This document shows, piece after piece, positions 27,693 through 29,581 of a stretch of DNA of 64,000 nt; positions within the stretch are counted from its first letter, which is position 1; the number at the start of each line of letters is the position of its first letter. Under the pieces are notes generated by a model. It made no database searches, had not been told where the DNA came from, and worked only from the letters and a program-made list of their open reading frames with translations. Location: the NCBI RefSeq assembly GCF_013122565.1, contig NZ_CP053258.1. One strand, written 5' to 3'. This DNA comes from Escherichia coli (lineage in GTDB: Bacteria; Pseudomonadota; Gammaproteobacteria; Enterobacterales; Enterobacteriaceae). Position numbers and translations under genes: made by a program.

Positions 27693-27818
27693 TTACAGGC
27701 CGGATATAATTAGTGCTGGAAAGCGGAACCTCCGCTGTATTAATTTAGTTACCCGCATCATTAATGAGCCTGCCCTGAAAAGTTAACGACAGGCTCCTGA
27801 AAAGGAGTGTTTTTTTTC

Positions 27819-28541
27819 ATGTCCAGGTCGCTTTTAACCAACGAAACCAGTGAGTTGGATTTACTGGATCAACGTCCTTTCGACCAGACCGATTTTGATA
27901 TTCTGAAATCCTACGAAGCGGTGGTGGACGGGTTAGCGATGCTTATTGGCTCCCACTGTGAAATCGTTTTGCACTCTTTGCAGGATCTAAAATGTTCAGC
28001 CATTCGCATTGCTAACGGTGAACATACAGGCCGGAAGATTGGTTCGCCAATTACTGACCTGGCGCTACGTATGCTGCACGATATGACGGGAGCGGATAGC
28101 AGCGTTTCTAAATGCTACTTTACTCGCGCCAAAAGCGGCGTATTAATGAAGTCCCTGACTATCGCGATTCGTAACCGCGAACAGCGTGTAATTGGTCTGC
28201 TGTGCATCAATATGAATCTTGATGTTCCCTTCTCGCAGATTATGAGCACTTTTGTGCCGCCAGAAACCCCGGATGTCGGTTCAAGCGTCAACTTTGCCTC
28301 TTCTGTTGAAGATCTGGTTACCCAAACGCTGGAGTTCACCATCGAAGAAGTAAATGCCGATCGCAATGTTTCTAATAACGCCAAAAATCGTCAGATCGTG
28401 CTGAATCTCTACGAGAAAGGGATCTTCGATATTAAAGACGCGATCAACCAGGTTGCTGACCGCCTGAACATCTCCAAACACACTGTCTATCTCTACATCC
28501 GCCAGTTCAAAAGCGGTGATTTCCAGGGGCAAGATAAGTAA
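27819..28541 (+). CDS. yheO: Putative regulator YheO (C-terminal HTH), function unknown
   Basis: ORF-track frame 27807..28541 begins at GTG; ATG at 27819 (MSRSLLT, 240 aa) follows SD aaggag; stop overlaps tusD start. Confidence 0.88.
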
Positions 28542-28927
28542 TGCGTTTTGCCATCGTGGTGACCGGGCCAGCATACGGTACGCAACAGGCGAGTAGTGCT
28601 TTTCAGTTTGCGCAGGCGCTGATTGCAGAAGGCCATGATTTAAGCAGTGTCTTTTTCTATCGGGAAGGGGTCTATAACGCTAACCAATTAACCTCACCGG
28701 CAAGCGACGAATTTGACCTTGTGCGCGGCTGGCAACAGTTGAATGCGCAACATGGTGTGGCGCTGAATATCTGCGTAGCGGCAGCATTACGCCGTGGCGT
28801 TGTTGATGAAACGGAGGCCAGAAGACTGGGGCTGGCTTCGTCAAACCTTCAGCCGGGATTTACCTTAAGCGGACTTGGCGCGCTGGCGGAAGCCTCGCTG
28901 ACCTGTGACAGGGTGGTACAGTTCTGA
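28541..28927 (+). CDS. tusD: Sulfurtransferase complex subunit TusD (tRNA 2-thiouridine synthesis)
   Basis: 128-aa ORF-track protein. Confidence 0.94.
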
Positions 28928-29286
28928 TGAAACGAATTGCGTTTGTTTTTTCTACTGTGCCTCATGGTACCGCTGCCGGGCGGGAAGGTTTAGATGCTTT
29001 ACTGGCAACTTCCGCGTTAACTGACGAGCTGGCCGTCTTCTTTATTGCTGATGGCGTTTTTCAGCTACTGCCAGGACAAAAGCCCGGTGCGGTGCTGGCG
29101 CGTGATTACATTGCCACTTTTAAATTGTTGGGTCTGTACGACATTGAACAGTGCTGGGTTTGTGCGGCTTCACTGCGCGAACGTGGGTTAGATCCGCAGA
29201 CACCCTTTGTTGTCGAAGCCACGCCGCTCGAAGCAGATGCCTTACGCCGCGAACTTGGCAACTACGATGTAATTTTGAGGTTTTGA
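28927..29286 (+). CDS. tusC: Sulfurtransferase complex subunit TusC
   Basis: 119-aa ORF-track protein; start overlaps tusD stop. Confidence 0.94.
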
Positions 29287-29293
29287 GGCGTTT

Positions 29294-29581
29294 ATGCTGC
29301 ACACATTACATCGCTCACCCTGGCTGACGGATTTTGCTGCGCTGCTGCGTCTGCTCAGTGAAGGCGACGAACTGCTATTATTGCAAGATGGCGTAACTGC
29401 CGTAGTTGACGGTAACCGCTACCTTGAAAGTCTGCGTAATGCCCCCATTAAGGTCTATGCCCTGAACGAAGACCTTATTGCCCGCGGTTTGACTGGTCAA
29501 ATTTCGAACGACATCATTCCAATTGACTATACTGATTTCGTCAGACTTACGGTTAAGCACTCCAGCCAGATGGCCTGGTGA
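29294..29581 (+). CDS. tusB: Sulfurtransferase complex subunit TusB
   Basis: 95-aa ORF-track protein. Confidence 0.94.

What the first reader, a model, noticed from the sequence alone, without database searches (positions are those of the whole stretch)
27791..29581. Uncharacterised regulator-like yheO is translationally coupled to the tusDCB sulfur-relay genes
The yheO stop overlaps the tusD start (TAATG) and tusD/tusC overlap likewise, implying one operon. YheO ends in a helix-turn-helix-like segment ([13 protein letters not shown]). Its Shine-Dalgarno (aggag, 27803..27807) can pair with an upstream ctcct (27794..27798) to form a small hairpin that would occlude ribosome binding. A dedicated regulator for tRNA 2-thiouridine synthesis has not, to my knowledge, been established.
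Basis: inference. Interest (0 to 1): 0.3.

Follow-up and report, generated by a model that had tools for sequence, protein, structure and literature searches.

The report
Known yheO-tusDCB operon, conserved leader hairpin
This is the already published Escherichia operon in which a PAS-domain transcription-factor gene (yheO) is followed by the overlapping tRNA-thiolation genes tusDCB. Published knock-outs show no Tus-like defect without YheO, so the only fresh detail is a conserved RNA hairpin over the yheO ribosome-binding site.

Summary

None of the gene-level points is new. The operon "yheO-tusDCB", its sigma-70 promoter, the stop/start overlap and the polar effect of insertions in yheO are all published.

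YheO is no longer uncharacterised:
- It is a ChIP-exo-validated transcription factor.
- It was named SrrA as a multicopy stress suppressor.
- A 2025 preprint reports that it represses ldhA and proposes the name LdhR.

Two independent clean yheO deletions do not reproduce tusDCB phenotypes. That argues against YheO being a required activator of 2-thiouridine synthesis. A repressor or autoregulator role remains untested.

My additions:
- The yheO-tusDCB order holds from Vibrio to Enterobacteriaceae.
- YheO is 94-100% identical across 80 Enterobacteriaceae species, against 52-95% for the Tus proteins.
- Only yheO has a strong Shine-Dalgarno. tusD and tusC have weak ones, which fits translational coupling.
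- The hairpin keeps its pairing through compensatory changes across genera.
- Its predicted occlusion of the ribosome site is not exceptional compared with neighbouring genes, and it does not melt with temperature in silico.

Interest is low.

The parts
27662..27692 (+). fkpA intrinsic terminator (ACCGCCGCCTG-ACC-CAGGCGGCGGT followed by a T-run), marking the upstream boundary of the yheO unit
   Evidence: Read directly. Conserved in most genera. Sub-threshold Rfam hits to terminator-bearing sRNAs fall here.
27717..27744 (+). Published constitutive sigma-70 promoter of 'yheO-tusDCB': TGGAAA (27717-22), 16-nt spacer, ATTAAT (27739-44), with TG at 27736-37 (extended -10)
   Evidence: The sequence matches the promoter listed in PMC3946193. 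CTGGAAAG and TGTATTA are conserved across genera. The tool's strict consensus scan did not flag it.
27751..27818 (+). Inferred 5' leader of about 68 nt. The transcription start is inferred from the promoter, not measured.
   Evidence: Inference from the promoter position. Conserved blocks ATGAGCCTGCCCTGA and CGACAGGCTC lie within it.
27766..27796 (+). Candidate helix P1: GAGCCUG (27766-72) pairs with CAGGCUC (27790-96). It shares GCUC (27793-96) with the SD hairpin, so the two cannot form together. It could equally be a DNA inverted repeat (a possible operator).
   Evidence: 92.7% of cells paired, against 28-54% when the partner is slid. One pair goes C-G to U.G to U-A. Covariation is weak (13 of 500 shuffles reach it). 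Predicted energy -10.2 kcal/mol.
27793..27808 (+). SD hairpin P2: GCUCCU-GAAA-AGGAGU, enclosing the yheO Shine-Dalgarno AGGAG (27803-07)
   Evidence: Covariation score 0.465 against 0.306 shuffled (0 of 500 shuffles reach it), with two pairs changed on both sides. G.U pairs make the structure specific to the + strand RNA.
27810..27817 (+). U8 tract between the hairpin and the AUG. It makes the hairpin terminator-like and can also pair with UGAAAAGGA.
   Evidence: Flagged as terminator-like. The alternative pairing appears in the P1-constrained fold. The tract is interrupted or displaced in the Buttiauxella/Cedecea/Erwinia group.
27819..28541 (+). yheO (also published as srrA and as 'dauR'; the name ldhR has been proposed): a PAS_6 + HTH_22 transcription factor of 240 aa
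   Evidence: Pfam. PGAP annotation. AlphaFold2 model with pLDDT 90. PAS/LOV fold matches, including the PAS-HTH regulators VqmA and EL222.
28541..28927 (+). tusD (DsrE family; Cys78 present). Its start overlaps the yheO stop (TAATG).
   Evidence: Overlap conserved in 78 of 80 species. Weak SD, median -5.6 kcal/mol.
28927..29286 (+). tusC (DsrE family). Its start overlaps the tusD stop (TGATG).
   Evidence: Overlap in 73 of 73 loci evaluated. In other genera the SD is very weak (median -3.0 kcal/mol over 75 loci), although in this window it scores -8.0.
29294..29581 (+). tusB (DsrH family), 7 nt after tusC, with a GAGG motif inside the end of tusC

Best explanation
This is the known yheO-tusD-tusC-tusB operon of Escherichia.

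Transcription: one sigma-70 promoter upstream of yheO drives all four cistrons.

Translation: yheO carries the only consistently strong Shine-Dalgarno. tusD and tusC start on the last base of the preceding stop codon, and across genera their own Shine-Dalgarno sequences are weak. They are therefore most likely translated by ribosomes that terminate on the upstream cistron and re-initiate. This step is inferred.

The protein: YheO is a one-component PAS-HTH transcription factor. Its documented targets lie at the pyruvate/acetate node (ldhA repression, ackA binding). No Tus-dependent phenotype tested so far requires it.

The linkage: it is best read as an old, stable operon architecture in which tusDCB ride on the yheO promoter and ribosome-binding site. 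It is not a dedicated regulator-target pair.

The hairpin: the GAAA-loop hairpin over the yheO Shine-Dalgarno is a conserved RNA structure. Its most likely effect (inferred) is to set a low, fixed rate of yheO initiation. Through coupling it would also cap TusDCB synthesis. It does not look like a signal-responsive switch.
For: Sequence and family:
- Anatomy and domains.
- Annotated as yheO/tusD/tusC/tusB in the listed records; 5425 of 5426 E. coli genomes match the region.

Published evidence:
- The operon and promoter are published (PMC3946193; PMC4421995).
- The overlap and operon are stated explicitly, and a yheO ('dauR') mutant shows no biofilm defect, unlike the tusDCB mutant (PMC11026471).
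- An IS insertion in yheO is polar on tusDCB, while a clean deletion has no tus phenotype (PMC12783184).
- YheO is a ChIP-exo TF reported to bind ackA (citing PMC6237786).
- YheO represses ldhA.
- Acetate evolution experiments hit yheO in both E. coli and Vibrio natriegens.

- The order fkpA-yheO-tusDCB-rpsL is seen in every one of 80 Enterobacteriaceae loci whose sequence extends far enough. yheO-tusDCB-rpsL also holds in Erwinia, Serratia and Dickeya, Rosenbergiella, Vibrio and a lineage at 53% identity.
- Overlaps are conserved.
- Predicted SD duplex energies: yheO -8.5, tusD -5.6, tusC -3.0, tusB -5.6 (medians), against a control median of -6.4 kcal/mol.
- Hairpin covariation.
- The SD core is about 2% unpaired at every temperature from 25 to 50 C.
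- More distant homologues lie beside pta, pfl and serine-dehydratase genes.
Against: - Nobody has measured tus mRNA or s2U levels in a yheO mutant. If YheO were a repressor of its own operon, a deletion could be phenotypically silent.
- Both deletions are in-frame or clean, so they preserve the promoter and the coupling. They say nothing about coupling itself.
- The opening energy of the yheO ribosome site is only median among 59 neighbouring genes.
- Replacing the native upstream sequence by shuffles leaves the SD region about as paired in most lineages.
- Predicted hairpin stability falls to between -3.5 and -5.5 kcal/mol outside the Escherichia-Klebsiella clade.
- In this window tusC's own SD scores -8.0 kcal/mol, so the weak-SD argument for tusC rests on other genera.
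- The 'damping' role is therefore plausible but not shown.
- The transcription start is inferred, not measured.
Confidence: 0.65

Rival explanations
1. YheO autoregulates the operon, most likely as a repressor, and so does control tusDCB transcription. It would bind the conserved inverted repeat GAGCCTG-N17-CAGGCTC just downstream of the promoter. This can coexist with its other targets.
For: - Family habit: the PAS_6-HTH protein Cj1387c represses the adjacent gene (PMC4519771).
- A perfectly conserved 7-bp inverted repeat lies in the leader.
- The yheO-tus linkage holds from Vibrio to Enterobacteriaceae.
- Loss of a repressor need not give a tus-like phenotype, so searches do not exclude this.
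Against: - No binding or expression data exist for this promoter in the papers I could read.
- No motif is shared between the yheO leader and the ldhA, ackA or lipA upstream regions beyond chance-level 7-8-mers.
- One-sided C-to-T changes in one arm (14 sequences) fit RNA G.U pairing as well as they fit a degenerate operator.
- The repeat is absent from the Vibrio and Dickeya leaders.
Confidence: 0.3
2. The leader is a conditional riboregulator. P1 and the SD hairpin would be alternative folds, and the hairpin plus U8 would act as an attenuator or terminator. A signal (protein, ligand or translation status) would then set how much yheO-tusDCB is made.
For: - P1 and P2 share four bases and are close in energy (-10.2 and -8.6 kcal/mol; constrained ensembles -19.7 and -21.4).
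- Both arms are conserved.
- The hairpin followed by U8 is flagged as terminator-like.
Against: - In the P1 state the U-tract pairs with UGAAAAGGA, so the SD stays paired.
- There is no predicted temperature response from 25 to 50 C.
- The U-tract is not adjacent to the stem in the Buttiauxella, Cedecea or Erwinia leaders.
- The stem is short: 6 bp with 3 G-C pairs.
- No Rfam family matches.
- No paper in the library pairs yheO with Term-seq, attenuator or riboswitch.
Confidence: 0.12
3. The hairpin is incidental. A purine-rich Shine-Dalgarno happens to lie near a complementary pyrimidine run, and the apparent conservation reflects close relatedness.
For: - The local z-score is only -2.25.
- RBS accessibility is average.
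- The shuffled-upstream test is not significant in most lineages.
- Most of the 80 loci carry the identical hairpin, so independent events are few.
Against: - Two of six pairs change on both sides while staying paired (U-A/C-G, and C-G/U-A/A-U).
- The covariation score exceeds all 500 shuffles and all slid controls.
- Erwinia keeps the hairpin with yet another pair type.
Confidence: 0.12

Closest known systems
E. coli K-12 yheO-tusDCB operon (b3346-b3343), as listed in operon and promoter compilations and in the tusDCB virulence papers
   Same: Same genes, order, overlaps, promoter sequence and neighbours (fkpA upstream, rpsL downstream). DNA is 95-99% identical to nearly all E. coli genomes.
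   Different: Nothing at gene level. The window is a slightly divergent Escherichia: its best match is 99.3% to strain PapM-32-1, and its YheO is 100% identical to that of E. whittamii.
PAS_6 + HTH_22 local regulators (Cj1387c of Campylobacter jejuni; DauR of Pseudomonas, from my own knowledge)
   Same: Same two-domain architecture. The gene lies next to, and is co-oriented with, a small metabolic gene set. Cj1387c represses its neighbour.
   Different: For YheO the neighbour is a sulfur-relay complex rather than a RidA or amino-acid catabolic gene. Regulation of that neighbour is undemonstrated. The reported YheO targets (ldhA, ackA) lie elsewhere.
PAS-HTH one-component regulators with solved structures (VqmA, 6ide; EL222, 8a5r)
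   Same: An N-terminal PAS-fold sensor followed by a C-terminal helical DNA-binding domain. Both appear among the Foldseek hits.
   Different: Sequence identity is only 13-15%. The HTH is a different type (HTH_22 rather than LuxR-type). The ligand is unknown. No YheO-family structure has been solved.
Translationally coupled operons with UAAUG/UGAUG junctions (for example trpBA or ribosomal-protein operons; established knowledge)
   Same: One-base stop/start overlaps, with weak downstream Shine-Dalgarno sequences across genera.
   Different: Coupling has not been tested experimentally here. The first cistron is a regulator, not a subunit of the downstream complex.
Shine-Dalgarno-sequestering leader hairpins and RNA thermometers (fourU, ROSE)
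   Same: The SD lies in the 3' arm of a hairpin, and a U-run can pair with the purine tract.
   Different: There is no predicted melting between 25 and 50 C, and the stem is G-C rich with a GAAA loop. Accessibility is not lower than in neighbouring genes.

Membership tests
YheO/DauR-type regulator (PAS_6 + HTH_22) | PAS_6 domain above the Pfam gathering score | tested here: met
   PF08348, 125.8 bits against a cut-off of 27, residues 29-137.
YheO/DauR-type regulator (PAS_6 + HTH_22) | C-terminal HTH_22 domain above the gathering score | tested here: met
   PF13309, 70.3 bits against a cut-off of 29.6, residues 171-228. The model has four C-terminal helices at pLDDT above 90.
YheO/DauR-type regulator (PAS_6 + HTH_22) | Sequence-specific DNA binding in vivo | not testable with these tools
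   Literature only: ChIP-exo in PMC6237786, with the ackA site cited; ldhA promoter reporter.
YheO/DauR-type regulator (PAS_6 + HTH_22) | Regulates the adjacent gene(s) | tested here: inconclusive
   A conserved inverted repeat lies in the leader, but no motif is shared with the known targets. Deletions show no tus phenotype, which does not exclude repression.
TusBCD sulfur-relay complex (DsrEFH-like) | Two DsrE-family subunits plus one DsrH-family subunit encoded in tandem | tested here: met
   PF02635 twice and PF04077 once, E = 1e-27 to 1e-29.
TusBCD sulfur-relay complex (DsrEFH-like) | Catalytic Cys78 of TusD | tested here: met
   The translation reads ...VALNIC78VAAAL... The role of this residue is stated in PMC11026471.
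Translationally coupled operon | Same-strand cistrons with overlapping stop and start codons, conserved across species | tested here: met
   yheO/tusD junction: 75 TAATG, 3 TGATG and 2 abutting, of 80 loci. tusD/tusC junction: overlap in 73 of 73.
Translationally coupled operon | Downstream cistrons lack a strong Shine-Dalgarno of their own | tested here: met
   Median duplex energies: tusD -5.6 and tusC -3.0, against yheO -8.5 and control genes -6.4 kcal/mol. In this window, however, tusC scores -8.0.
Translationally coupled operon | Downstream translation depends on upstream translation | not testable with these tools
   The published polar effect of an IS insertion fits coupling, but it also fits simple transcriptional polarity.
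SD-sequestering regulatory hairpin | A stable hairpin contains the SD and is more stable than shuffled sequence | tested here: met
   -9.1 kcal/mol, z = -2.25, 6 of 200 shuffles. Pair probability 0.96-0.98 for the five inner pairs and 0.82 for the outer G.U pair.
SD-sequestering regulatory hairpin | Pairing maintained by compensatory changes | tested here: met
   Two of six pairs change on both sides. Covariation 0.465 against 0.306, with 0 of 500 shuffles reaching it. There are few independent events.
SD-sequestering regulatory hairpin | Ribosome site less accessible than in ordinary genes, or than with a randomised upstream sequence | tested here: not met
   Opening energy 7.6 kcal/mol, rank 27 of 59. 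In the shuffled-upstream test only the window (5 of 150), Atlantibacter (13) and Raoultella (14) fall in the lowest tenth of shuffles, of 15 lineages.
Intrinsic terminator / transcription attenuator | G+C-rich stem directly followed by a U-tract | tested here: met
   A 6-bp stem with 3 G-C pairs, then G followed by U8. The stem is short and the predicted energy modest.
Intrinsic terminator / transcription attenuator | The stem-plus-U-tract arrangement is conserved where the hairpin is conserved | tested here: not met
   In Buttiauxella, Siccibacter, Cedecea and Erwinia the hairpin is followed by GGUAUC.. or GGUGUC...
RNA thermometer | SD becomes accessible between about 30 and 45 C | tested here: not met
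   Predicted unpaired fraction of the SD is 0.015-0.024 from 25 to 50 C. This is in silico only.
Any curated Rfam family | Match at or near the gathering score in the leader | tested here: not met
   There are only sub-threshold hits, all over the fkpA terminator, and none over 27750-27820 on the + strand.

The most novel reading that the evidence does not exclude
YheO might be a sulfur- or persulfide-responsive sensor. Its co-translation with TusDCB would tie the state of the IscS-TusA-TusBCD sulfur relay to routing at the pyruvate node. The reported targets would fit such a role: ldhA and ackA, and lipA, whose product I know to be an Fe-S, sulfur-inserting enzyme that makes the lipoate cofactor of pyruvate dehydrogenase.

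Two observations would fit:
- Two nearly invariant cysteines in the PAS domain (C47 and C129).
- The unusually strong conservation of YheO (94-100% identity, against 52-95% for the Tus proteins).

Nothing here tests this. The cysteines are also conserved in paralogues that are not linked to tus genes.
Probability: 0.06. Interest if true: 0.65.

Novelty: already known. Interest (0 to 1): 0.18.

Why it matters
As stated, the finding adds little. The operon, the overlap, the promoter and the regulator nature of YheO are all in the literature, and existing knock-outs already weaken the idea of a dedicated regulator.

Three residual points may be useful to specialists:
- YheO is far more conserved than its operon partners, and the linkage to tusDCB dates back to the Vibrio-Enterobacterales ancestor.
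- All four cistrons appear to hang on one structured ribosome-binding site. Any change in yheO initiation should therefore carry over to TusDCB levels, and so to tRNA thiolation, aminoglycoside sensitivity and virulence phenotypes.
- Whether YheO feeds back on this promoter is a cheap experiment that has not been done.

Tried and rejected
- **Rfam scan of the leader.** Nothing was found over 27750-27820.
- **RNA-thermometer idea**, prompted by the heat-related SrrA phenotypes. Predicted SD accessibility is flat from 25 to 50 C.
- **P1/P2 as an on/off switch.** In the P1 state the U8 tract re-pairs the SD, so no 'open' state is predicted.
- **Search for a YheO operator.** I compared the yheO leader with the K-12 ldhA, ackA and lipA upstream regions and found only chance-level 7-8-mers.
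- **Palindrome in the promoter spacer (27722-27736) as an RNA helix.** 73% of cells are paired, many are unpaired, and the result is inconclusive.
- **Alignment-free test of whether native upstream sequence occludes the SD more than shuffles.** Only 3 of 15 lineages fall in the lowest tenth of shuffles. The SD window was broadly defined, so the test is blunt.
- **Profile search of solved structures.** There is no YheO-family structure.
- **First genome scan, with a 30-sequence alignment.** The second scan returned only Enterobacteriaceae. More distant contexts had to come from 12 single-protein look-ups, one of which found nothing.
- **Survey of tusDCB loci lacking yheO** (Pasteurellales, Aeromonadales, Pseudomonas).
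Full report
**What is in the window.**

The stretch 27791-29581 lies in an Escherichia chromosome segment ordered kefB-yheV-slyD-slyX-fkpA-yheO-tusD-tusC-tusB-rpsL-rpsG-fusA-tufA. A 2.1-kb query covering it matches 5425 of 5426 complete E. coli genomes at 95-99% identity. The best match is 99.3%, and the listed records annotate the genes as yheO, tusD, tusC and tusB. The YheO protein is 100% identical to that of Escherichia whittamii.

**Check of the observation.**

All stated features are present.
- yheO runs from ATG 27819 to TAA 28539-28541.
- The tusD ATG begins on the last A of that stop (TAATG).
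- tusD and tusC overlap as TGATG at 28925-28929.
- tusB starts 7 nt after tusC.
- aggag is at 27803-27807 and ctcct at 27794-27798. With a G.U closing pair they form GCUCCU-GAAA-AGGAGU (27793-27808).
- The hairpin folds at -9.1 kcal/mol in a 33-nt context, z = -2.25, with 6 of 200 shuffles doing as well.
- It is followed by G and then U8, so the scanner also lists it as terminator-like.
- The peptide [13 protein letters not shown] sits in a Pfam HTH_22 match (residues 171-228, E = 1.4e-19), preceded by a PAS_6 domain (residues 29-137, E = 9.5e-37).
- TusD and TusC are DsrE-family proteins and TusB is DsrH-family.

**What the literature already says.**

The operon is published.
- It appears as 'yheO-tusDCB' with a constitutive sigma-70 promoter TGGAAA-16-ATTAAT (PMC3946193). 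That sequence is at 27717-27744 here.
- It appears again in an operon list (PMC4421995).
- A 2024 paper on TusDCB in uropathogenic E. coli calls the gene dauR. It states that the tusD start and the upstream stop overlap, infers a single operon driven by the upstream promoter, and complements tusDCB from that promoter (PMC11026471).

YheO has been studied.
- It was tagged for ChIP-exo and deleted for RNA-seq (PMC6237786). A later preprint cites that work for binding at ackA.
- It was named SrrA as a multicopy suppressor of several temperature-sensitive mutants (PMC7461557, PMC10607373).
- A 2025 preprint reports that CRISPRi of yheO de-represses ldhA and raises D-lactate, and proposes the name LdhR.
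- Acetate evolution experiments hit yheO repeatedly in E. coli and in Vibrio natriegens, where it is also described as lying in the tusDCB operon.

- An IS insertion in yheO causes the tus-type gentamicin collateral sensitivity, but a clean yheO deletion does not. The authors attribute the effect to polarity (PMC12783184).
- A yheO deletion forms normal biofilm, whereas a tusDCB deletion does not.

So no Tus-dependent phenotype tested so far requires YheO. Neither study measured tus mRNA or tRNA thiolation. A repressor role is therefore not excluded.

**Comparative genomics done here.**

A scan of one genome per species returned 80 Enterobacteriaceae loci.
- Wherever the sequence extends far enough, every locus shows the order fkpA-yheO-tusD-tusC-tusB-rpsL.
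- The yheO/tusD junction is TAATG in 75 loci, TGATG in 3, and abutting (TAAATG or TAGATG) in 2. The tusD/tusC junction overlaps in all 73 that could be evaluated.
- YheO is 94-100% identical to the window protein in these species. In the same loci TusD is 73-95%, TusC 60-95%, TusB 52-91% and FkpA 78-98% identical. YheO is thus under much tighter constraint than its operon partners.
- The yheO-tusDCB-rpsL order persists in Erwinia, Serratia and Dickeya, in Rosenbergiella at 65% identity, in Vibrio at 67%, and in an unnamed lineage at 53%.

Homologues at 46-48% identity lie elsewhere.
- In an Endozoicomonadaceae genome the gene sits beside pta, a pyruvate formate-lyase gene and a serine dehydratase gene.
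- In Paenibacillus larvae it is divergent from a permease and a serine dehydratase.
- In Avibacterium it overlaps a gene of the AP_endonuc_2 family.

These contexts fit the published pyruvate/acetate-node role better than a tRNA-modification role.

**Translation signals.**

Predicted duplex energies with the 16S 3' end:

| Gene | Energy (kcal/mol) | Note |
|---|---|---|
| yheO | -8.5 | range -8.2 to -8.8 over 80 loci |
| tusD | -5.6 | median |
| tusC | -3.0 | median; -8.0 in this window |
| tusB | -5.6 | median |
| 35 neighbouring genes | -6.4 | median |

Together with the overlaps, this fits termination-reinitiation coupling. The yheO ribosome-binding site would be the main entry point for the operon. 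This is an inference; no tool here can test coupling.

**The leader RNA.**

Across genera the intergenic region shows conserved blocks:
- the -35 region (CTGGAAAG);
- TGTATTA, the extended -10;
- ATGAGCCTGCCCTGA;
- CGACAGGCTC;
- the hairpin itself.

Fifteen distinct hairpin variants align without gaps in the stem.
- 91% of cells form standard pairs.
- The covariation score is 0.465, against 0.306 +/- 0.031 for shuffles (0 of 500 reach it) and 0.09-0.27 for slid controls.
- Two of six pairs change on both sides: U-A/C-G, and C-G/U-A/A-U.
- Erwinia contributes a further variant, GCUCUU/AAGGGU.
- G.U pairs in the stem would be C.A mismatches on the other strand. The structure is therefore specific to the + strand RNA.
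- The variants come from related species, so independent events are few.

A second candidate helix, P1, pairs GAGCCUG (27766-72) with CAGGCUC (27790-96).
- It is 92.7% paired, and one pair goes from C-G through U.G to U-A.
- Its covariation is weak: 13 of 500 shuffles reach it.
- It could equally be a DNA inverted repeat.
- P1 and the SD hairpin share four bases and cannot coexist.

Energies:
- P1 is -10.2 and the hairpin -8.6 kcal/mol. The constrained ensembles are -19.7 and -21.4 kcal/mol.
- In the P1 state the U8 tract pairs with UGAAAAGGA. The SD core therefore stays about 2% unpaired in all states.
- That holds at all temperatures from 25 to 50 C. I found no predicted open state and no thermometer behaviour.

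**Controls that temper the hairpin story.**

- Opening positions -18 to +4 of yheO costs 7.6 kcal/mol. That is rank 27 of 59 among the annotated genes of this neighbourhood.
- With the upstream sequence shuffled, the SD region stays about as paired as in the native sequence in most lineages. Only the window (5 of 150), Atlantibacter (13) and Raoultella (14) fall in the lowest tenth of shuffles.
- Outside the Escherichia-Klebsiella-Enterobacter clade the hairpin is weaker, at -3.5 to -6.0 kcal/mol. Competing folds sometimes displace it in the predicted ensemble.
- The U-tract is no longer adjacent to the stem in those genera.

My reading is that the hairpin is a conserved RNA structure. Its role as a regulated occluder of the ribosome site is not established. 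A constitutive damping or stabilising role is the most economical reading.

**The protein.**

- An AlphaFold2 model built on 30 family members has mean pLDDT 90.
- Foldseek against the PDB finds generic PAS/LOV domains. The full-length hits include the PAS-HTH regulators VqmA and EL222 at 13-15% identity.
- No family member has a solved structure detectable by sequence.
- Family-wide near-invariant residues include C47, E48, S60, N66, G75, P77, G126, C129 and N131.
- The ligand is unknown.

**Verdict.**

The suggestion that this is an uncharacterised, dedicated regulator of 2-thiouridine synthesis does not. The gene arrangement is already known. The one feature not described in the literature I could search is the covarying leader hairpin, and it is a modest one. 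Whether YheO feeds back on its own promoter is the one open and cheaply testable question.

Noticed in passing
window 27819-28541 compared with L001-L080: YheO is 94-100% identical across 80 Enterobacteriaceae species. In the same loci TusD, TusC, TusB and FkpA are 52-98% identical. That is unusually tight constraint for a transcription factor.
   Followed up: partly
L086/L087 4001-4726 (Endozoicomonadaceae); L090 4001-4690 (Paenibacillus larvae): YheO homologues at 46-48% identity lie next to pta, a pyruvate formate-lyase gene and serine-dehydratase genes. This fits the published pyruvate/acetate-node role of E. coli YheO.
   Followed up: partly
window 27722-27736: A G+C-rich inverted repeat (AGCGGAACCTCCGCT) sits in the spacer between the -35 and -10 of the yheO promoter. 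It varies between genera while often staying palindromic (GTGG/CCAC, GCGT/ACGC, GCGC/GCGC). The pair count is inconclusive: 73% paired.
   Followed up: partly
window 27703-27710: A perfectly conserved GATATAAT lies directly after the fkpA terminator and upstream of the published promoter. It could be a second -10 element with no recognisable -35.
   Followed up: no
window 27773-27781 and 27796-27804: The 9-mer CCTGAAAAG occurs twice, 23 nt apart: once in the loop of candidate helix P1 and once spanning the SD hairpin. The second copy is invariant in the Escherichia-Klebsiella clade, and the first is partly conserved.
   Followed up: no
window 29605-29668: The rpsL (str operon) promoter TTGACA-17-TAAAAT follows tusB. 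Immediately after it comes an 8-bp hairpin (CGTCCTCA...TGAGGACG) followed by TTTTATTA. The scan found no terminator between tusB and this point, so read-through from tusB into the str leader is possible.
   Followed up: no
L082 about 3940-4000 (Rosenbergiella); L076-L079 (Mangrovibacter); L071-L074 (Cedecea neteri group): Leaders that lack the Escherichia-type hairpin offer different upstream complements to the SD region: AUUAUCCU/AGGAUGAU, ACCAUC/GGUGGU and UCAUC/GGUGG. This might indicate repeated selection for SD pairing, but it was not distinguishable from chance.
   Followed up: partly
L092 about 1430-1500 (Erwinia) and the conserved block at window 27769-27775: In the genera whose SD reads GGGUGG, the conserved upstream block CUGCCC is complementary to it. 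The Erwinia minimum-free-energy fold uses that pairing instead of the local hairpin. The leader may therefore have more than the two alternative folds considered.
   Followed up: no
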